Origin: Methanobacteriota archaeon
Lineage (GTDB): Archaea; Thermoplasmatota; Poseidoniia; Poseidoniales; Poseidoniaceae
DNA length: 38,960 nt
Direction of reading: 5' to 3'
Assembly (NCBI GenBank): GCA_038130705.1
Contig: JAYPOA010000006.1
Coordinates: forward strand, 1 to 38,960
Shown here: positions 7,737 to 35,606 of the stretch, in pieces
Position numbering within the stretch: the stretch's first letter is position 1
Layout: every line of letters begins with the position of its first letter
Notes under the pieces: model-generated
Database searches by the model: none
Told to the model about the DNA's origin: nothing
Seen by the model: only the letters and a program-made list of their open reading frames with translations
Position numbers and translations under genes: made by a program

Positions 7737-8054
7737 ATGGGTATGTCCGATGTACTTCAACACATAAAAAATGCTGAAGAATCTGCAAAAGAAACCTTGG
7801 CTGATGCCAAAGAAAAAGCAACCAAGATTGTCGCAGATGCTCGCAAAGAAGCTTCTGAAATTTTGCAAAACGCTCAGGATGGAGCTGTTTCGTCAACTGT
7901 AGCAACCATCGATTCAGCAAAACAAGAGGCCGGAAAGGAAGCTGAAGGAGTCCAAGCAGAAGGCGCCAAAGCGGTTGAATCTATTCATTCATCCGCAGGT
8001 GACAAAAGAGATGCCGCTGTTCAAATAATCATAGATTCATTGATGTCAAACTGA
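7737..8054 (+). CDS. atpH: A-type ATP synthase subunit H (peripheral stalk)
   Basis: Ala/Glu/Lys-rich coiled coil (VLQHIKNAEESA...), first gene of the operon, GGTGA ribosome-binding site upstream. Confidence 0.85.
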   Translation: MGMSDVLQHIKNAEESAKETLADAKEKATKIVADARKEASEILQNAQDGAVSSTVATIDSAKQEAGKEAEGVQAEGAKAVESIHSSAGDKRDAAVQIIIDSLMSN

Positions 8055-8063
8055 GGTGATAAT

Positions 8064-26033: not shown

Positions 26034-27179
26034 TTGCAACAATCCTTACTTGATAATTGGTTTCTGAGGCAGGACATACTCGACCAATTGGTTAGCAATG
26101 ATGAAGATATTTCTGAAGCAGAAAGATACGCTGACCGTGTTATGAGGATTGCACAGGAAGAAGAAGCAGAACATCAAGTCCTTTCTGATCCATTTGATAG
26201 GTCTGTAGCACTGGTATTGTCTCTTGTAAAAGAGGAAGATATGGATCCCTGGAATATTGACCTGTCTGCATTCCTTAAACTATTTACAGAAAGGGTGAGA
26301 AAAGAGGCTAAGAGCTTAGATTTACCAGCTTGCGGACGACTAATACGCCTATCATGGGAAGTTCTGAACCAGCAAGCATCGACTTTGTTGGATAAAGTAA
26401 CAGCGATAGAATATGAAGAGTATGATGAATTTTCAGATTTTGGCTGGGAAACAGAGTATGATGATCAAGAATTTATGTTCACAACTGCAGTTCTTGAGGG
26501 CGCGGCAGATGGCATTCTACCGTCTTTCTTTGGTGAGAGAGTGAGAAGGGATGAAGGTAGGCCATCTACATTGGGAGAATTGCTTTCAGCGCTAAAAGAC
26601 GCATGTGATGAAGCTGAGATATTCAAGGCTAAGGAAGAATATAGAAAATCTCATGCTGAGGAATTGAAGAATATGATTGATAATGTCGGTGCGAGGATGC
26701 ACAATGAAGACATGGAAGGCGACATTCGACGTTGTTGGAATGCAATGAGAGATGTAATGTCTTCGATGAAATCTAACACAGTTCCGATAAGTGAAGTAAC
26801 CTCAAAATTATCCAAAATTCTGCTAGAGGAATTCGGTGAAATACCTGAGGGGTATGAAGTTGAATCGAAAATAACATCATTTGTTGCGGGATTATTTTTG
26901 ACACACAGAGGATATGCTTGGATAAGTCAAGATGGACCAGAAGATCCAATCCTCATAGAAGACAGGTGGCCAAATGCAAAAACATTCGATGAGGTCACGG
27001 AATTTGCATCAAAGTTGTTTGATGACGAATCAGAGGCATTGAAATCAGAAGAAACAGAATCAATGAGGCACGCTGCAAGACTTGCAGAACGAGCAAGAAT
27101 CGCGGCTGAAGAAGAAGAAATTGCAAAGCTTAAAGAAGCATCGGAATCAGAGAATCCTGATGATTGGCTGGTCGAGTAA
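26034..27179 (+). CDS. scpA: Kleisin ScpA
   Basis: MDPWNIDL kleisin motif, TLGELLSALK, C-terminal FVAGLFL...WISQ winged helix, and position directly after smc. TTG start is tentative. Confidence 0.88.
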   Translation: MQQSLLDNWFLRQDILDQLVSNDEDISEAERYADRVMRIAQEEEAEHQVLSDPFDRSVALVLSLVKEEDMDPWNIDLSAFLKLFTERVRKEAKSLDLPACGRLIRLSWEVLNQQASTLLDKVTAIEYEEYDEFSDFGWETEYDDQEFMFTTAVLEGAADGILPSFFGERVRRDEGRPSTLGELLSALKDACDEAEIFKAKEEYRKSHAEELKNMIDNVGARMHNEDMEGDIRRCWNAMRDVMSSMKSNTVPISEVTSKLSKILLEEFGEIPEGYEVESKITSFVAGLFLTHRGYAWISQDGPEDPILIEDRWPNAKTFDEVTEFASKLFDDESEALKSEETESMRHAARLAERARIAAEEEEIAKLKEASESENPDDWLVE

Positions 27180-27800: not shown

Positions 27801-29102
27801 TCATCCTTGATTTCTAATCATCTTTAATGTGTCCTCGACCAGTTGCTGAGTTACTTGTTTATTGGAAGAATTTACGATGTTTGCAACTCTCTCTATTTCA
27901 TCACCCTTTGCACCAGCGCTTACTGCCATATTCTTGGCATGTAATTTCATGTGACCCGCTTGGATGCCACTTGTTGCCAATGCACGCATTGCACCTAGAT
28001 TCTGGGCAAGACCTGCAGCTGCCATTATTCCTGCCAATTCTTTTGCAGATTCCACGCCTAAAATAGAGAGATTTGCTTTTGCTGCAGGATGGACCTTAGA
28101 TGCGCCTCCAACAATACCAACTGCCATTGGAGTCTCAATTTTCCCAATCAAATTCCAATGTTCATCTTTCTCCCATCTTGTCATAGAGGTGTATGTTCCA
28201 GTTTCCACTGATGCCCAGGCATGACATCCAGCTTCGATTGCTCTCCAATCCTGCCCACAAGCCATTGCAATAGCGCTTATTGCATTCATTACACCTTTAT
28301 TGTGCGTTGCCGCACGATATGGGTCTGCCATAGCAAAGTGATGCGCTTCGAGAATACCTTTTATCACCTTAATCCCTTTTTCTCTACTCCCGTCATCCGA
28401 CATTTCTTCAGGTGTAAATTTGGCCTCAACTTTAGCCAGTCTGTGAGATGCAAGATTCGACAGAATTCGTAAATGTACGCGGCCAGATGTAATTTCTTCC
28501 ACTTTTGAGGTTATTCGTTCAGCCATAGAATTGACTGCGTTAGCTCCCATTGCATCTTTTGTATCGACAAGCAAGTGAATAACCAACATTTTACCCAGCA
28601 AAGAATCAATGATCTTTACTTCTATGTCCTTACATCCCCCTCCCAGTCTAATCATGGTGGATTCAACAGAATTGCAGGCTGAAATTAATTCATATTTCGC
28701 AGTCTTTATTGATTCAGAAGCCTTTTCAGGGTCATCCAGGTCTAAAACCTGTATTTGTGCAATCATTATCGAATCATCGCTGTAGGTTCTAAATCCTCCA
28801 TTTTTGAGGCAACGCTTTGCCATATTGCTTGCGGCTGCAACTATGCTTGACTCCTCTACACAAAAGGGGATCAAGTAGGCTTTTTCATCGATTACAAAGT
28901 TAGTAGCAATGCCAACAGGTAGCGACATTGTACCAATTACGTTCTCAATCATGTGATCGGCCGCTTCTTCGGATAATTCTCCATGAGTGGCTAGCGCTTC
29001 AATTTCAGATGAAGACAAACCAGATAGCGATGCAACAATGTCTCTACGCTCTTCGACAGATAATTTGTAGAAGCCTGAAAGTCTACTATCATCTACCGGC
29101 AT
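27801..29102 (-). CDS. mvaA: Class II (bacterial-type) hydroxymethylglutaryl-CoA reductase
   Basis: SRLSGFYKL, IENVIG, EESSIVAA, DAMGAN, ATHNKG, GQDWRAIEA, GLAQN and GIQAGHMKLH. Confidence 0.93.
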   Translation of the reverse strand: MPVDDSRLSGFYKLSVEERRDIVASLSGLSSSEIEALATHGELSEEAADHMIENVIGTMSLPVGIATNFVIDEKAYLIPFCVEESSIVAAASNMAKRCLKNGGFRTYSDDSIMIAQIQVLDLDDPEKASESIKTAKYELISACNSVESTMIRLGGGCKDIEVKIIDSLLGKMLVIHLLVDTKDAMGANAVNSMAERITSKVEEITSGRVHLRILSNLASHRLAKVEAKFTPEEMSDDGSREKGIKVIKGILEAHHFAMADPYRAATHNKGVMNAISAIAMACGQDWRAIEAGCHAWASVETGTYTSMTRWEKDEHWNLIGKIETPMAVGIVGGASKVHPAAKANLSILGVESAKELAGIMAAAGLAQNLGAMRALATSGIQAGHMKLHAKNMAVSAGAKGDEIERVANIVNSSNKQVTQQLVEDTLKMIRNQG

Positions 29103-29151
29103 GGCCTATCCTCTATCAACATGCAGAAGTGTGTACTTGATGAACAAATCG

Positions 29152-29257
29152 GTTAATTAACGCGAAAATTAACGCGTTAACAATGCGTTAGCGTAGCGTT
29201 AATAGGGCTTTTTTTTACCAGACCGTTGATTGATTAACATGTAATAACGCTTACATG
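29152..29257. repeat. Cluster of TAACGC/GCGTTA repeats and palindromes in a divergent intergenic region (putative protein-binding array)
   Basis: AATTAACGCG at 29155 and 29167; GCGTTA at 29174, 29185 and 29196; palindromes GTTAATTAAC (29152-29161) and TTAACGCGTTAA (29169-29180); inverted repeat CATGTAA-TAACGC-TTACATG (29238-29257). Confidence 0.75.
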
Positions 29258-29309
29258 CAGACAGGTTTTTCACCGAAACATCATATACTCGGAAAAATCA
29301 ACTAAATCC

Positions 29310-30893
29310 ATGAGTGATGAATATCCAATATTGGGCATTCCTGCCATAAGAGAGAATCCGTTTCAGTCTCGACCACTTGAAGCTCGAAATTCGGATCTAT
29401 TCGTTGGTAGGTCAAAGCTTTCTACTACCTGGGTTAGATTCCTTAAATCTCGGACTGCAAGATTGAATTTGTTGATTGGTGAGAGTGGAACTGGTAGGAC
29501 CTCTTTGATGAGGTGCATAGCTTCTGAGACTCAGAAATATCTACATCTTGATATGTATCCTACTGAAAATCACGTCGCTAGAATTTTGGATGAAATTTAT
29601 ACTAAGTTCGTTGACTTTGAAATTCCTTCAAATGGTCAAGAATTAGTAGATAGATTAGTCGCTGTTACAGAAGAATCGAATGAAGGTATGCCATTAATTA
29701 CCTTCGACTACCCTAATGCAGATGGCGAACAACTAGCGAATATTATTGCTAATCTATTACCTGCTCTCGAGAGATTGAAAGCAATGGTCGTCGTCATTCT
29801 ATCTGTAAATCAAAGAGCGCAATGGAAAGAAAACCTAATTGAAAAATTTGAGCATCTTGAGGTTATTGATCCATTTACAAAAGAGGAAGTAAGAGAAATT
29901 TGTGAGTTGAGAATAAATAAGGTCTCTAATGTTGCTTGGAATATAACCGATGAAGCACTAAATTTCGTCTTTGAGGCATCCGCTGGGAAAGCGAGCAAGG
30001 TCATTAGAACGATGCGAGATATAGTGGATTTTGAGAGAGATAACCCGAGGGAGATTAAATTCGAAGAAGAAAAGAAAATTGTAATCGAAACGGATATAGA
30101 ACAAAATTCCGATGTGGAGATAAATATCAAAAATAGCGATTTCGATTTAGATTTAGAGAAGCTACAAGAACAAACAAAAGACATAGAGAGGCCTATGGTA
30201 TCAGATTTACCACCAGTCCCTGCGATGTCATATGGAGGATTTGGAGGCCTTGTAAGCAGGAACAGAGTAAATATGCACGTCGATACAAGATTTGATGAGA
30301 ACACTGAACGAAATCCACTGGATATTCAATCGGATGAATCCGATTTTTGGCAGGCAGATGCAACTGACGCAGTCCTAATAACGGAAGAAGAAAATGATGA
30401 AATTACAGAAGAGTCCGATTTTGATGAAGAAATCCAAATCGATGAAGACATCTATGAGCCTATGCTTGAATCTTCTACAAATGGGGAACCAAACAGTAAT
30501 CTTGAGCAAGTAGTGTTAGATTTGTTTGGTAAAATACTCTCTAACCCTAACAATCAAGGAGTTGAAACCTTGTCACAATTGTTGATGAATTTGAATACTC
30601 CAGTTATTGGGAGAAAAGAAAGCAATCCCCTTAATATTCACATTTTACGAAATTTAGGTAGAAACGAAGCAGTTCTGGTAGAAGTATCGACTCAAAGAGA
30701 GTTTTCACCCTCTGACCCCCGTCTTCAGGACCAATTAGGAATTAAGAGGCCTAGAATGTCTCAAATATGCAACAAATTGTACAGGGCAGGAATCCTTTCT
30801 GTTCAACAAAAAGGCAAATCTAGGGTGTTTAAATTAACAAATGATGCTAGAGGGCAATTAATAGCATGGGGAATGATGGAGGCGGAAGCATGA
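29310..30893 (+). CDS. Degenerate AAA+/STAND-like P-loop protein with acidic linker and C-terminal winged helix-turn-helix
   Basis: ENPF...LFVGR N-terminal motif, P-loop GESGTGRTS, Walker-B-like LITFDY, lid PFTKEEV...ITDEAL...SAG, long D/E-rich linker, and wHTH LQDQLGIKRPRMSQICNKLYRAGIL...GKSRVFKLT. Confidence 0.8.
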   Translation: MSDEYPILGIPAIRENPFQSRPLEARNSDLFVGRSKLSTTWVRFLKSRTARLNLLIGESGTGRTSLMRCIASETQKYLHLDMYPTENHVARILDEIYTKFVDFEIPSNGQELVDRLVAVTEESNEGMPLITFDYPNADGEQLANIIANLLPALERLKAMVVVILSVNQRAQWKENLIEKFEHLEVIDPFTKEEVREICELRINKVSNVAWNITDEALNFVFEASAGKASKVIRTMRDIVDFERDNPREIKFEEEKKIVIETDIEQNSDVEINIKNSDFDLDLEKLQEQTKDIERPMVSDLPPVPAMSYGGFGGLVSRNRVNMHVDTRFDENTERNPLDIQSDESDFWQADATDAVLITEEENDEITEESDFDEEIQIDEDIYEPMLESSTNGEPNSNLEQVVLDLFGKILSNPNNQGVETLSQLLMNLNTPVIGRKESNPLNIHILRNLGRNEAVLVEVSTQREFSPSDPRLQDQLGIKRPRMSQICNKLYRAGILSVQQKGKSRVFKLTNDARGQLIAWGMMEAEA

Positions 30894-31918
30894 GTTGGTC
30901 AGTATTCAGGTCATGGCAGGCCCCAAATCAAATCTCAACCACTTGTGAAGTAGGTAATGATTTCTTAATATCAGCAGGGTTAGAGATAATTCTGCTTGAT
31001 GAAGAATGTAACATTAGATGGAAGAGGTCAATGCCGTTTAGAGTTCATGGTGCATCGCATGATTCAGGAAGAATAGGGATACTTTACGGACACGGCTTCC
31101 ATTTGCTACAAGTAAGTGATGGCTCACCAATAAATGAAGGTCGCTCCACTGAAGGTGGTTTTAGCGATATTCTACCCCGTCCTGGCGGGGGGTGGGTTCT
31201 TTCTTGTCGGAAAGGCAATTTGCATATTTTCAGCTCAGAAGGACGTGGAATCAAGCGATTATCAGCAGGTGGGGTTAGGAGACTAATTGGTTGGTTTGAT
31301 AGAGAACACTTAATGTGGCAGGATGAAAATGGAAAATTAAGGTGTGCAAGGTTAGCAAATGAAGATTCACAAAGACTGCTAGAAGATAGAGTATGGTCTT
31401 GGGTAAGCACCATGAAGGGAGGTAAGATTCTACTCCAATCGGCAGATGGCATGTTGTGGGAAGGAGTTCCTCACCCGTACGGTTGGGATAGTTTAGATAC
31501 AATTGATACACGTTCACTCGAACCATTGAGCGCACACAAAGCCGGAGATGGTTGGTGGATTTTGTCAATTGAAGGTTCTGTTCATTCAATGGCACAACAA
31601 GTTACAATAAGCCTTGGAAATAGTGACTTGGGAGATTTCTTAATTGGACTTGCTCCAGACACTATGGCTACTGTAAAAAGAGATGGTCTTGTTAGGATTT
31701 GGCAATCTCCTGAATTATCTAACCTAAGAAGAATTGAATTACAAAAAATGGTTGCTGAAGCAAAGGTTGCGAGTGATTGGGAGGAGAGAAGAAAGATATT
31801 CAAGCGAGCTTGCGCTGCAGAAGACGAAGGAAGAATATCACTTGCTATTGACCTATATCAATCGCTAGGAAGAACGTCAGATGTGAATCGATTAATCGCA
31901 CGTCTCAAAGGTGATTAA
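30890..31918 (+). CDS. Hypothetical protein, probable beta-propeller (WD40/PQQ-like) with C-terminal helical TPR-like segment
   Basis: Repeated short beta strands with Trp/Gly turns (GGWVLS..GNLHIF, DGMLWEG, DGLVRIWQ) and C-terminal AEDEGRISLAIDLYQSLG. The ATGA start overlaps the upstream stop. Confidence 0.65.
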   Translation: MSWSVFRSWQAPNQISTTCEVGNDFLISAGLEIILLDEECNIRWKRSMPFRVHGASHDSGRIGILYGHGFHLLQVSDGSPINEGRSTEGGFSDILPRPGGGWVLSCRKGNLHIFSSEGRGIKRLSAGGVRRLIGWFDREHLMWQDENGKLRCARLANEDSQRLLEDRVWSWVSTMKGGKILLQSADGMLWEGVPHPYGWDSLDTIDTRSLEPLSAHKAGDGWWILSIEGSVHSMAQQVTISLGNSDLGDFLIGLAPDTMATVKRDGLVRIWQSPELSNLRRIELQKMVAEAKVASDWEERRKIFKRACAAEDEGRISLAIDLYQSLGRTSDVNRLIARLKGD

Positions 31919-32216
31919 TTTGGAATTAAATAATACGATACTTAGAGAAAGGCTTGAACATTATCTAAATTTGACTAAGAAAGCAAGGGAGAAGGCTACT
32001 CCTATTCCCCTAAAGGGCACAAAGGATGATGAGATGCTACAAATTTTACTCCGAATGGCTGATGATTATGCTAGCGATGCCAAGCATTTCATGGAGATAG
32101 GCGACTACGTTAGATCGTTTGGAGCAATCAATTATGCTCATGCATGGATAGATGCTGGTGTCAAGTTGAGATTATTGGATGGCCATGAGGATGATGAATT
32201 ATTCACCCTGCCATAA
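31911..32216 (+). CDS. DUF357 family protein
   Basis: MADDYASDAKHF...GDYVRSFGAINYAHAWIDAG is characteristic of this archaeal family. Confidence 0.85.
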   Translation: MINLELNNTILRERLEHYLNLTKKAREKATPIPLKGTKDDEMLQILLRMADDYASDAKHFMEIGDYVRSFGAINYAHAWIDAGVKLRLLDGHEDDELFTLP

Positions 32217-34421: not shown

Positions 34422-35606
34422 TTATCTCTTAATTTTACTTGGTATTAGCGTTTCTAACCGTCTTGCTACATCACTTGGAAGCATGTGTGGCATCGAAATG
34501 AATTGTGTTCTTCCTCTGCCGACTTCGGCGTTCGAAGTCTTTGTCGAGATGATGTTTTCTTGCGCCAATTTCTTAAGATGCTTCCAAAAAGTAGTATGTC
34601 CTTTTGGGTCCACCTCGTATTCTTCACAAGCTACGTGGTACAATTTTTCAGCCTCGCCAGTTGTCATAGAATCCTCTTTCCTCAGTCTTCTGCAGATTCC
34701 TATCAAAATTAGCATGTGATGAGCGCTTAGGTTATCGATATTTATTGAATCAACATTTCCAGGTAGCGAAACAACGGTTTTCTGAACATCTTTTGGCTCA
34801 ATTTGGGAACGTCCAGCCGCTTCTGCTCTTTTTGAGGCTCCTTCTAACAGTTCAATTGCGTGCCTCGCATCGCCAGAAGGCTCCGCCGCCTCTGAGATTA
34901 ATTCGAGAATCTCGTCAGAACACGTGCCGTTTACAAGCGCTAGATCTCTTCTTTGTTCAGCAATTTTGTACAGTCCAGACTTATCATAAGGCGGTATTCG
35001 TAAATGATTAGTCCTTCCAATTCTTGATATGACAGCATTCTCGAGAAGGTCGAGAACTTGTTCTTGACTGATCATTATCAACGATAGAGTTCCTGTATTA
35101 TCTCCATCTTCGTCAATCCTCATCAATTGATAGATTATTCCATCACCTGATTGCCTCAACAAGTGGTCAACCTCATCCAATGTGACAATTAGGTGAGAAT
35201 TACTTCCTCTAATTATTCGTTTTAGACTTGTCAACAACTCTCCAAGGCCCAATCCTCTATCGGGATGTCCGGGGTCCAACTTCTGTACTATAGTCTGCAT
35301 TACTCGAGAAGAAGTTGCAGCGTTCCTGCAATTTACATATACGGATTTGATATTTCTTTTATCAGATAAGTGCTTGATAATATCTTGACAGAACAACTTC
35401 GTAACAGCAGTTTTTCCAGAACCAACCGGCCCCGTTATGACGGCTCGACTGGTTCCATTTGGGTGCGCAATATTGCTAAATATAGACGCTAATTGAACTT
35501 GATAATCTTCTCTTCCTACGAGTTCATTGGGCAGAAAATCAAACCCGAAAACATCGGGGCGATTGATAATCAGCCCAGCTCCGATACGGTCGAGGTAGGT
35601 GCTCAT
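34422..35606 (-). CDS. cdc6: Orc1/Cdc6 replication initiator
   Basis: LVGRE, Walker A GPVGSGKT, YVNC, Walker B VTLDEVD, sensor-2 GDARHAI, and C-terminal winged helix ending GRGRT. Confidence 0.93.
   Translation of the reverse strand: MSTYLDRIGAGLIINRPDVFGFDFLPNELVGREDYQVQLASIFSNIAHPNGTSRAVITGPVGSGKTAVTKLFCQDIIKHLSDKRNIKSVYVNCRNAATSSRVMQTIVQKLDPGHPDRGLGLGELLTSLKRIIRGSNSHLIVTLDEVDHLLRQSGDGIIYQLMRIDEDGDNTGTLSLIMISQEQVLDLLENAVISRIGRTNHLRIPPYDKSGLYKIAEQRRDLALVNGTCSDEILELISEAAEPSGDARHAIELLEGASKRAEAAGRSQIEPKDVQKTVVSLPGNVDSINIDNLSAHHMLILIGICRRLRKEDSMTTGEAEKLYHVACEEYEVDPKGHTTFWKHLKKLAQENIISTKTSNAEVGRGRTQFISMPHMLPSDVARRLETLIPSKIKR

What the first reader, a model, noticed from the sequence alone, without database searches (positions are those of the whole stretch)
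29103..29309. Helically phased TAACGC repeat and palindrome array upstream of a wHTH gene: operator, centromere-like site or origin?
Seen: this is the largest intergenic gap in the window and holds six copies of TAACGC/GCGTTA. Three reverse copies are exactly 11 bp apart (29174, 29185, 29196). Two forward copies are 12 bp apart within a 10-bp direct repeat, AATTAACGCG (29155, 29167). The two arrays meet in the perfect palindrome TTAACGCGTTAA. A sixth copy forms the spacer of a 7-bp inverted repeat (CATGTAA-TAACGC-TTACATG, 29238-29257). A T8 run sits between these elements, and ACATGCAGA occurs on both flanks (29119, 29253). Known: one-helical-turn spacing characterises iterons, centromere-like partition sites and cooperative operators; these repeats do not match archaeal ORB boxes. 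Inference: this is a multi-site binding platform, most simply for the adjacent AAA+-wHTH protein. It may be a non-canonical origin or an SMC-loading/partition site, given smc-scpAB 1.3 kb away and cdc6 5 kb away.
Basis: partly seen in the sequence, partly recalled or inferred. Interest (0 to 1): 0.78.

Follow-up and report, generated by a model that had tools for sequence, protein, structure and literature searches.

The report
Conserved phased repeat array, divergent promoter
A 150-base stretch between the HMG-CoA reductase gene and an Orc/Cdc6-like ATPase gene with a DNA-binding tail carries seven helically phased copies of one short motif, is unique in the genome and is kept throughout the marine archaeal order Poseidoniales; it is most likely the control site of that protein, not a replication origin.

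Summary
Six exact TAACGC/GCGTTA copies lie in 93 bp; this is the only cluster of 3 or more in the 1.86-Mb genome.

The array is conserved. All 50 Poseidoniales loci with upstream sequence carry it, always between HMG-CoA reductase (HMGR) and the AAA+/winged-helix (wHTH) gene. Protein identity there falls to about 30%.

The unit is 11 bp, roughly GCGTTAAyAAt. There are five distal and two proximal copies. Their distance to an invariant promoter-like 14-mer is 105 bp in 23 of 25 genus loci, although the spacer sequence varies.

Four sister-lineage genomes lack the ATPase and also lack the motif upstream of HMGR.

Canonical ORB boxes sit at other loci hundreds of kb away, and the one closed relative shows no skew inflection at the array.

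Best reading (about 0.55): a phased operator platform in a divergent promoter, read by the adjacent AAA+-wHTH protein. That protein would control its own operon and HMGR. A non-canonical origin or a centromere-like site is not excluded, but unlikely (about 0.1 and 0.05). No binding has been shown.

The parts
27801..29102 (-). HMG-CoA reductase gene, transcribed away from the array
   Evidence: Pfam PF00368, E 4.3e-108. It is the divergent neighbour in 29/29 + 17/17 + 2/2 loci by tblastn and in 2 genus-g20 loci by PF00368.
29136..29152 (-). Conserved element CTTGATGAAnAAACCG; inferred core promoter of HMGR (reads TTCATCAAG on the gene's sense strand)
   Evidence: ATGAA, A, and CG are invariant in 14/14 aligned genus sequences. 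TTCAAG/TTCAAA-type hexamers are the commonest at -42..-18 of 670 crude gene starts. The promoter role is inferred; there are no TSS data.
29157..29163 (+). Distal unit 1 (TTAACGC)
29169..29180 (.). Distal units 2 and 3, overlapping in the palindrome TTAACGCGTTAA
   Evidence: Unique in the genome. TAACG-GTTA is invariant in 14/14.
29185..29190 (-). Distal unit 4 (GCGTTA), 11 bp after unit 3
   Evidence: GTTA is invariant in 14/14.
29196..29202 (-). Distal unit 5 (GCGTTAA), 11 bp after unit 4
29203..29234 (.). Spacer with variable sequence but fixed length (holds the non-conserved T8 run)
   Evidence: The sequence is not conserved, yet the palindrome-to-promoter distance is 105 bp in 23/25 loci. 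AT content of the 34-bp spacer segment measured (29202-29235) is 0.65, so it is not a marked unwinding element.
29235..29250 (+). Proximal pair: TTAACATG (degenerate; genus consensus TTAACGCG) and TAACGC, phased about 10-11 bp apart
   Evidence: T..AC..GT..TAAC is invariant in 14/14. In other genera the equivalent GCGTGAA/ACGTGAA units abut the promoter.
29275..29288 (+). GAAACATCATATAC, inferred BRE/TATA of the ATPase operon; ends 21 nt before the ATG with no Shine-Dalgarno sequence between
   Evidence: GAAACATCATATA is invariant in 14/14 and unique in the genome. Related GAAACATCAAATAC / GAAACCATATAAG occur in other genera. The promoter role is inferred.
29310..30893 (+). 527-aa AAA+ (initiator/loader-like fold) protein with a disordered acidic linker and a C-terminal winged helix; the proposed reader of the array
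   Evidence: Present in 125/126 sampled Poseidoniales other than G000 and in 0/24 genomes of families f4/f5.
30866..31918 (+). 350-aa gene overlapping the ATPase stop by 28 nt; no Pfam family; probably co-transcribed
31911..32216 (+). DUF357 gene, last of the same-strand run; follows the ATPase gene directly in G039
   Evidence: Pfam PF04010, E 1e-20

Best explanation
The 29136-29288 core is a rigid cis-regulatory module of a divergent promoter. It holds seven copies of an 11-bp unit (about GCGTTAAyAAt). Five are distal (two forward and three reverse, meeting in a palindrome) and two are proximal. All are spaced 11-12 bp apart, so they lie on one face of the helix, at fixed distances from the two core promoters.

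The most likely reader is the C-terminal winged helix of the AAA+ protein encoded immediately downstream, with one monomer per unit. Nucleotide-dependent association of the AAA+ modules would make binding cooperative. This would set transcription of the protein's own operon and of HMG-CoA reductase, the committed step of archaeal lipid synthesis.

Shown here: the array, its uniqueness, its conservation, its phasing, its fixed spacing, and its co-occurrence with the gene.

Inferred: who binds it, oligomerisation, the direction of regulation, and the promoter assignments.
For: 1. Uniqueness. It is the only cluster of 3 or more hexamers per 100-120 bp in G000 and in the closed relative G039. No other exact phased pair exists in either genome. 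This fits a dedicated local site, not a regulon.

2. Conservation.
- 29/29, 17/17, 2/2 and 2/2 loci carry the motif upstream of the ATPase gene, covering families f1, f2 and f3.
- An exact phased pair GCGTTA-N5/6-GCGTTA occurs in 163/201 genomes of the order.

3. Phasing and spacing.
- Among 216 oriented units, same-orientation neighbours are 11 bp apart 54 times, 12 bp 20 times, and 22-23 bp 7 times.
- The palindrome-to-promoter distance is 105 bp (ten helical turns) in 23/25 genus loci, despite an unconserved spacer.

4. Position. The module lies between two divergent genes, flanked by conserved promoter-like elements. In other genera the proximal units abut the promoter-like element.

5. 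Link to the protein.
- SPSD and R-x-R-(L/M)-S-Q of the wHTH are kept in 18/18 order-wide matches among 22 loci searched.
- Four of 4 sister-lineage genomes without the ATPase have no hexamer copy in the 1.5 kb upstream of HMGR.

6. Fold. AAA+ plus lid plus winged helix; archaeal Orc1/Cdc6 ranks first.

7. Precedent. Sulfolobales Orc1-2, of the same architecture, is a transcription regulator. I saw only the abstracts of PMC6061795 and PMC9738581 in the listing.
Against: - No binding, TSS or expression data exist; no RNA run was listed.
- ATPase gene, HMGR gene and array are never separated in any locus. Synteny therefore cannot tell which gene is the target, or whether the neighbour is the binder.
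- Relatives are not independent, so the locus counts overstate the support.
- The Walker A lysine is arginine in most orthologues, and Walker B is D-Y rather than D-E. ATP-driven assembly is therefore uncertain.
- Seven phased monomer sites are more than most archaeal operators have, and resemble initiator or centromere arrays.
- The promoter assignments rest on position and on a crude hexamer count.
Confidence: 0.55

Rival explanations
1. The array is an operator of the divergent promoter, but it is read by a transcription factor encoded elsewhere. The AAA+-wHTH gene is only one of the regulated genes.
For: The architecture and fixed spacing favour transcription control but do not name the binder. 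ATPase, HMGR and array are never uncoupled.
Against: The site is unique in the genome, so the factor would have a single target. Such local regulators are usually encoded next to their site. In 4/4 sister genomes the motif and the ATPase gene are missing together. The conserved wHTH parallels the conserved motif.
Confidence: 0.2
2. The array is a non-canonical replication origin, or an origin-control element. The iteron-like units are bound by the lineage-specific Orc/Cdc6-like AAA+-wHTH protein acting as an extra initiator, by analogy with WhiP at Sulfolobus oriC3.
For: - The protein's best structural matches are archaeal Orc1/Cdc6 bound to origin DNA (2qby_A, Z 16.4, 310 residues aligned, rmsd 14.4; 2v1u_A, Z 15.8).
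- The units are inverted around a spacer.
- cdc6 lies 4-6 kb away in 5/5 relatives checked across two families.
- The cdc6 flanks leave only 54-bp and 72-bp gaps.
- The gene is near-universal and found at one locus per genome.
Against: - Canonical ORBs with a G-string occur in 32/41 relatives: 84 matches against 3 for the reversed control. They include inverted pairs about 155 bp apart at a locus orthologous to G000:C15:25,560-25,860.
- These ORBs are far from the array or on other contigs: G044 at 305,935 and 1,824,166 against 695,081; G016 on C9 against C2; G039 at 307,181 against 614,400.
- G039 shows no GC- or AT-skew inflection at 614 kb.
- The spacer is only 65% AT.
- The fixed 105-bp distance to a promoter element is not expected of an origin.
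- There is no sequence-level kinship to Cdc6: hhalign probability 20%, Walker A region only.
- No homologue was found on viral contigs.
Confidence: 0.1
3. The array is a chromosomal centromere-like or SMC-loading/organising site. It would resemble the phased 11-bp iterons of plasmid R1 parC, which flank the par promoter and also autoregulate.
For: The units have 11-bp periodicity and lie in two clusters upstream of an operon whose first product is a DNA-binding protein. The site is unique. smc-scpA-scpB end 1.3 kb away, and this synteny is kept in G039. The parC comparison is recalled, not tested.
Against: No partition motor (ParA, ParM or TubZ type) is encoded in the operon: the downstream genes have no Pfam family or are DUF357. 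smc-scpAB are convergent with HMGR, not adjacent to the array. No archaeal SMC-loading site is known for comparison.
Confidence: 0.05
4. The conserved sequence encodes a structured small RNA or a 5' leader element.
For: High conservation of a non-coding stretch that contains palindromes.
Against: No meaningful Rfam match: the single hit scores 23.6 bits against a gathering score of 56, E 0.39. The RNAalifold consensus is -5.85 kcal/mol with a covariation term of -0.37, and only 1 of 18 pairs shows compensatory change. The same unit occurs in both orientations at DNA helical spacing.
Confidence: 0.02

Closest known systems
Archaeal Orc1/Cdc6 with ORB / mini-ORB origin boxes
   Same: An AAA+ module, lid and C-terminal winged helix reading several short asymmetric repeats in both orientations. 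Orc1/Cdc6 gives the best structural matches. A cdc6 gene lies 5 kb away.
   Different: The units do not match the ORB consensus quoted in PMC4153887 (passages read). True ORBs lie elsewhere. There is no Cdc6_C or Cdc6_lid Pfam match. hhalign probability is 20%. A 190-aa disordered acidic linker is inserted. Units are 11 bp apart rather than flanking a long AT-rich region.
Orc1-2 of Sulfolobales (a non-initiator Orc1/Cdc6 paralogue acting as a DNA-damage transcription regulator)
   Same: The same AAA+/wH architecture used for promoter control rather than initiation (abstracts of PMC6061795 and PMC9738581 seen in the listing).
   Different: Orc1-2 is a global regulator with many target promoters. 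Here the site is unique in the genome, and the protein is not a sequence-level Orc1/Cdc6 member.
Archaeal ATPase (Pfam PF01637 ATPase_2 / AAA_16) fused to a MarR-like winged helix, e.g. PABY2304 (PDB 2qen)
   Same: Distant compact relatives of the family (P0202, P0206; profile E 1e-17) pass the PF01637 cut-off and carry a MarR-like wHTH. 2qen is among the Foldseek hits.
   Different: The Poseidoniales proteins themselves stay below every Pfam cut-off. They have the long acidic linker with conserved short motifs, and most have Arg in place of the Walker A Lys. I know of no described DNA target for the PF01637 class (recall).
STAND-type regulators such as MalT, with arrays of short asymmetric boxes
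   Same: A P-loop oligomerisation module plus an HTH, with several short sites in direct and inverted order upstream of promoters. There is a weak nSTAND1 match (22.9 bits against a cut-off of 27.1). The MalT comparison is recalled.
   Different: No fused sensor domain. The fold search ranks initiator/loader AAA+ proteins above NLR/STAND chains. This is an archaeal TBP/TFB-type promoter.
parC of plasmid R1 (two sets of five 11-bp iterons around the parMR promoter, bound by ParR)
   Same: An 11-bp period, two clusters, a site upstream of the operon that encodes the presumed binder, and likely autoregulation (comparison recalled, not tested).
   Different: Chromosomal. The binder would be an AAA+-wHTH protein, not a ribbon-helix-helix protein. 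There is no motor gene. Units occur in both orientations.

Membership tests
Archaeal oriC (Orc1/Cdc6-dependent) | ORB or mini-ORB boxes matching the archaeal consensus | tested here: not met
   No ORB core with 1 mismatch or fewer on contig C6, which is the window. The units (GCGTTAA) are unrelated to the consensus quoted. Canonical ORBs occur on other contigs and loci.
Archaeal oriC (Orc1/Cdc6-dependent) | AT-rich unwinding element between inverted boxes | tested here: not met
   The spacer is 34 bp at AT 0.65, against 0.62 for the whole gap.
Archaeal oriC (Orc1/Cdc6-dependent) | Nucleotide-skew inflection at the site | tested here: not met
   In the closed relative G039, cumulative GC skew rises steadily from 440 to 720 kb, and AT skew falls steadily from 400 to 1,175 kb. 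The array at 614 kb lies mid-slope. Only one genome was tested and its skew is weak, so the power is low.
Archaeal oriC (Orc1/Cdc6-dependent) | Replication starts there (marker frequency, 2D gels) | not testable with these tools
   Only contigs of DNA runs were on offer, so no depth profile could be made.
Orc1/Cdc6 protein family (for the 527-aa protein) | Sequence-profile membership (Cdc6 lid, Cdc6_C winged helix) | tested here: not met
   The window's true Cdc6 hits PF22703 and PF09079; the 527-aa protein does not. PF24389 is matched below its cut-off in 6/19 homologues. hhalign probability is 20% over 50 columns.
Orc1/Cdc6 protein family (for the 527-aa protein) | AAA+ base, lid and C-terminal winged-helix fold | tested here: inconclusive
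   VIA-align gives 2qby_A Z 16.4, and 1w5t, 1fnn and 2v1u Z 15.8-15.9. However, MuB (15.6), TnsC (15.1) and RFC (14.5) are within about 1-2 Z. The model's mean pLDDT is 67, and residues 250-437 are disordered.
Pfam PF01637 archaeal ATPase + wHTH class | Score above the PF01637 gathering cut-off | tested here: inconclusive
   PF01637 is not among the families matched by P0001 (section A) or among the 25 families shown of 43 for the 19 homologues at E up to 1. Distant relatives P0202 (36.4 bits) and P0206 (35.7 bits) pass the 33.2 cut-off.
Local transcription-factor operator in a divergent promoter | Sites lie between two divergently transcribed genes, next to a gene for a DNA-binding protein | tested here: met
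Local transcription-factor operator in a divergent promoter | Fixed, helically phased distance to core promoter elements | tested here: met
   105 bp in 23/25 loci. There is at most a 1-bp indel between the HMGR-side element and unit 1. The promoter identity itself is inferred.
Local transcription-factor operator in a divergent promoter | Sequence-specific binding and an effect on transcription | not testable with these tools
   Needs EMSA, footprinting, DAP-seq and in vitro transcription.
Type II (parC/ParR-like) centromere | A partition motor gene in the same operon | tested here: not met
   The downstream genes have no Pfam family (350 aa) or are DUF357.
Structured RNA | Covarying base pairs or an Rfam match | tested here: not met

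The most novel reading that the evidence does not exclude
Poseidoniales carry, next to cdc6 and smc-scpAB, a lineage-specific initiator-like pair. It consists of an Orc/Cdc6-fold AAA+-wHTH protein and its own unique array of phased 11-bp iterons. This pair would act as a second, non-ORB replication origin or as a chromosome-organising/segregation centre. Its promoter coupling would be autoregulation, as at many origins and centromeres.
Probability: 0.1. Interest if true: 0.85.

Novelty: new variant of a known kind. Interest (0 to 1): 0.52.

Why it matters
Poseidoniales (Marine Group II) are among the most abundant planktonic archaea, and none is cultured. Almost nothing is known about their gene regulation. 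Searches for Poseidoniales with transcription factor and promoter, for the palindrome itself and for the ATPase class found nothing relevant.

This work defines three things:
- an order-wide, single-copy cis element with base-level anatomy;
- a near-universal, order-specific protein (125/126 sampled genomes) as its probable reader;
- HMG-CoA reductase, the gateway to archaeal membrane lipids, as a probable target.

The pair can be tested directly with recombinant protein and a 170-bp DNA fragment, so no culture is needed. If the protein is the binder, it would be a second case, after Orc1-2, of an Orc/Cdc6-like AAA+-wH architecture used for promoter control. Here it would act on a single, multi-site, helically phased operator.

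Tried and rejected
- Rfam scan of 28800-29600: one sub-threshold hit only.
- RNAalifold on 14 genus sequences: no covariation.
- Earlier findings of this scan, by place and by sequence: nothing to show.
- Sequencing runs: 20 DNA holders, all kept as contigs; no RNA holder listed. Read laying was not used, because contigs give neither depth nor transcript ends.
- Complex prediction with three copies of the AAA+ module (residues 1-248): no verdict, median score 0.37 against a mark of 0.42, one control at 0.38. This is neither for nor against oligomerisation.
- Viral contigs: no relative of the protein, using two peptide patterns.
- ESM Atlas: only the protein's own Thermoplasmatota clusters and generic AAA_16/AAA_22 clusters.
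- PDB sequence searches: only the Walker A region (Clp/Hsp104, RuvB) and a weak ArsR/BigR wHTH match.
- Looser motif scans in G000 and G039: the other hits each carry a mismatch; the three G039 hits inspected lie in apparent coding sequence.
- Genus g20 seemed to lack the module, with 0/4 exact phased pairs and no HMGR or ATPase match in G128. G184 and G214 do carry HMGR, the ATPase and a variant array; G238's HMGR sits at a contig end. G128 is therefore probably an assembly gap.
- In G039 the broad AT-skew maximum (about 340-400 kb) is only roughly near the ORB at 307 kb. The skew there is too weak to place an origin.
- The sigma-70 promoter scan tool was not used, because it does not cover archaeal promoters.
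- The reversed-pattern control also gave hits (0-4 per genome). I did not sum them.

Full report
OBSERVATION

The gap 29103-29309 separates a minus-strand gene (27801-29102) from a plus-strand gene (29310-30893). By a crude ORF tiling it is the largest non-coding gap in the window: 207 bp, with the next at 195 bp.

The hexamer occurs 16 times in the window against 8.1 +/- 3.0 expected, and six of those copies lie within 29158-29250. The whole assembly (1,860,939 bp, 154 contigs; the window is contig C6) holds 444 copies, and this is the only place with three or more in 100 bp. A Poisson estimate gives 1.6e-13 for six in 93 bp. None of 20,000 Markov simulations of the gap's own composition exceeded four copies.

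CONTEXT

- The minus-strand gene is HMG-CoA reductase (PF00368, E 4e-108).
- Upstream of it, convergent, lie smc, a probable scpA, and scpB.
- The plus-strand gene encodes a 527-aa P-loop protein with only sub-threshold Pfam matches (nSTAND1, AAA).
- It is followed by an overlapping 350-aa gene with no family and by a DUF357 gene.
- A bona fide cdc6 lies at 34422-35606.
- Record titles of the three closest public contigs name Poseidoniales, or "Methanobacteriota archaeon" MAGs.

CONSERVATION

The 527-aa protein has a match in 39 of 41 relatives, counting G000. In a wider draw, not counting G000, it is matched in 125 of 126 Poseidoniales genomes (f1 77/77, f3 48/49) and in 0 of 24 genomes of two other families of the class.

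In every locus with upstream sequence, the divergent neighbour is HMGR and the hexamer cluster is present:
- 29 of 29 loci. One further locus, L023, is cut at the gene. 28 of the 29 have three or more exact copies; L013 has two.
- 17 of 17 loci.
- 2 of 2 loci in genus g20, as a variant form.
- 2 of 2 loci in family f2.

Protein identity in these loci falls to 25-38%, so the DNA motif is conserved at great depth. An exact phased pair GCGTTA-N5/6-GCGTTA is found in 163 of 201 genomes of the order. Where the ATPase position is known, the pair lies beside it. The reversed control there also gave some hits, which I did not sum. The kinship of these genomes means the counts are not independent.

ANATOMY

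Alignments of 22 and of 14 genus sequences show a rigid module, in this order:
- a conserved element CTTGATGAAnAAACCG on the HMGR side;
- two forward and three reverse units meeting in TAACGCGTTA;
- a spacer of variable sequence;
- a proximal pair, TTAACGCGT-N2-TAACG;
- about 24 bp of variable sequence;
- an invariant GAAACATCATATAC that ends 21 nt before the ATG, with no Shine-Dalgarno sequence.

Pooling 216 oriented units from 46 loci gives a unit of about GCGTTAAyAAt. Same-orientation neighbours are 11 bp apart 54 times, 12 bp 20 times, and 22-23 bp 7 times. The distance from the palindrome to the invariant 14-mer is 105 bp in 23 of 25 genus loci. It is 106 bp in one locus, and in one other the palindrome sits a unit earlier. 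That is ten helical turns kept across a spacer whose sequence is free to vary.

The T8 run, the ACATGCAGA pair and the 7-bp inverted repeat of the window are not conserved.

In other genera the 14-mer becomes GAAACATCAAATAC or GAAACCATATAAG, and degenerate units (GCGTGAA, ACGTGAA) abut it. I read the 14-mer as the BRE/TATA of a leaderless or short-leader transcript, and the HMGR-side element as the other core promoter. A crude survey of 670 gene starts finds TTCAAA/TTCAAG-type hexamers to be the commonest at -42..-18. There are no TSS data, so these assignments are inferred.

THE NEIGHBOURING PROTEIN

The model (mean pLDDT 67) has three parts:
- a confident AAA+ base and lid (about residues 27-245);
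- a disordered acidic linker (250-437) with a few invariant short motifs;
- a confident winged helix (about 440-520).

Foldseek and VIA-align put archaeal Orc1/Cdc6 first (2qby_B E 2.5e-9; 2qby_A Z 16.4 over 310 residues, rmsd 14.4; 2v1u_A Z 15.8). MuB, TnsC and RFC follow within 1-2 Z. At sequence level there is no kinship to Cdc6 beyond Walker A (hhalign probability 20%), and no Pfam family is passed.

A search of 1.84 billion representatives finds 307 relatives. The most distant compact ones (about 400-440 aa) pass PF01637 (archaeal ATPase) and carry a MarR-like wHTH.

Walker A reads G-x-G-R-T/S in most orthologues, with K in a few. Walker B is D-Y. The module may therefore bind nucleotide rather than hydrolyse it efficiently; this is an inference.

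The wHTH is the best-conserved part. SPSD and R-x-R-(L/M)-S-Q are kept in 18 of 18 order-wide matches among 22 loci searched. This parallels the conserved DNA unit.

WHO GOES WITH WHAT

Four sister-lineage genomes lack the ATPase gene with this query. In all four, HMGR has other neighbours and there is no copy of the hexamer in the 1.5 kb upstream. The array therefore travels with the ATPase gene and is not an ancestral feature of HMGR. Within Poseidoniales the three are never uncoupled, so comparative data cannot go further.

ORIGIN TEST

The ORB consensus was taken from passages of PMC4153887.
- Canonical boxes with a G-string occur in 32 of 41 relatives: 84 matches against 3 for the reversed control.
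- Several genomes have inverted pairs about 155 bp apart.
- In G000 such a box (with an inverted partner carrying a mismatch) lies in an AT-rich gap on another contig, C15:25,560-25,860.
- 5 of 12 fetched ORB loci share its flanking genes.
- In the closed genome G044 the boxes are at 305,935 and 1,824,166, while the ATPase gene is at 695,081.
- In G016 the ORB pair and the array are on different contigs.
- In the closed G039 an ORB lies at 307,181 and the array at 614,391-614,440.
- In G039 neither cumulative GC skew nor AT skew turns at 614 kb. The skew in this genome is weak, so the test has low power.
- The spacer is 65% AT, which is not an unwinding element.
- In favour of the origin reading: cdc6 stays 4-6 kb from the ATPase gene in 5 of 5 relatives checked, and it has no room for boxes beside it.

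This is why I keep the initiator-like reading alive at about 0.1.

OTHER READINGS

- A structured RNA is not supported.
- A centromere-like site resembles the array in period and layout. There is no motor gene in the operon, however, and the smc operon is not adjacent to the array.
- A factor encoded elsewhere could read the array. Its uniqueness in two whole genomes argues for a dedicated local regulator.

VERDICT

The element is real, unique and deeply conserved. It is best explained as a helically phased, multi-site operator platform of a divergent promoter. Its most probable reader is the winged helix of the neighbouring Orc/Cdc6-like AAA+ protein, and its most probable targets are that protein's own operon and HMG-CoA reductase (about 0.55).

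As precedent, Orc1-2 of Sulfolobales shows that this architecture can serve transcription control; I saw only the abstracts. I found nothing in print on this element or protein. Binding, direction of regulation and oligomerisation all remain to be shown.

Noticed in passing
outside the window: G000 contig C15:25,560-25,860: An AT-rich gap with a canonical ORB (core plus G-string) and an inverted ORB-like box about 155 bp away. The same flanking genes and boxes occur in 5 of 12 ORB loci fetched from relatives. This is a good candidate for the chromosomal origin of this genus, and it is not next to either cdc6 gene found in G000 (C6 and C13).
   Followed up: partly
window 34422-35606 and relatives: The Orc1/Cdc6 gene has only 54-bp and 72-bp gaps beside it and no ORB core on the contig. 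Yet it stays 4-6 kb from the ATPase gene in 5/5 relatives checked across two families. A second, divergent cdc6 paralogue lies elsewhere (G000:C13; about 100 kb away in G039 and G037).
   Followed up: partly
window 29310-30893 (residues 57-65, 129-134, 250-437): Walker A has Arg where Lys is expected in most orthologues (Lys in a few), and Walker B is D-Y. The disordered acidic linker keeps invariant short motifs (F278..L285, G309..L314..R317, W347) that look like docking sites for partner proteins.
   Followed up: no
window 30866-31918: A 350-aa protein with no Pfam family whose start overlaps the ATPase stop by 28 nt. No ORF of that size lies between the ATPase gene and DUF357 in G039, so it may be specific to this genus.
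   Followed up: no
L064 14586-16710 (G039:C1:614,586-616,710): In the closed relative G039 the ATPase and wHTH parts fall into two overlapping ORFs (454 and 275 aa). Most f3 genomes have one open frame of about 600-650 aa. This may be a frameshift, an assembly error or a real split.
   Followed up: no
window 26034-27179: The gene between smc and scpB, presumably scpA, gives no ScpA Pfam match. It has only a sub-threshold DUF2383 hit.
   Followed up: no
window 7869-8063: The second-largest gap (195 bp), also between divergent genes. It was not examined.
   Followed up: no
whole genome G000: ACGCGT, the core of the palindrome, occurs only 51 times in 1.86 Mb, so the array is built from a rare word.
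   Followed up: no
window-wide: GC and AT skew in the window follow the coding strand of the genes (positive over plus-strand genes, negative over minus-strand genes). Local skew here therefore reflects gene orientation rather than replication.
   Followed up: partly
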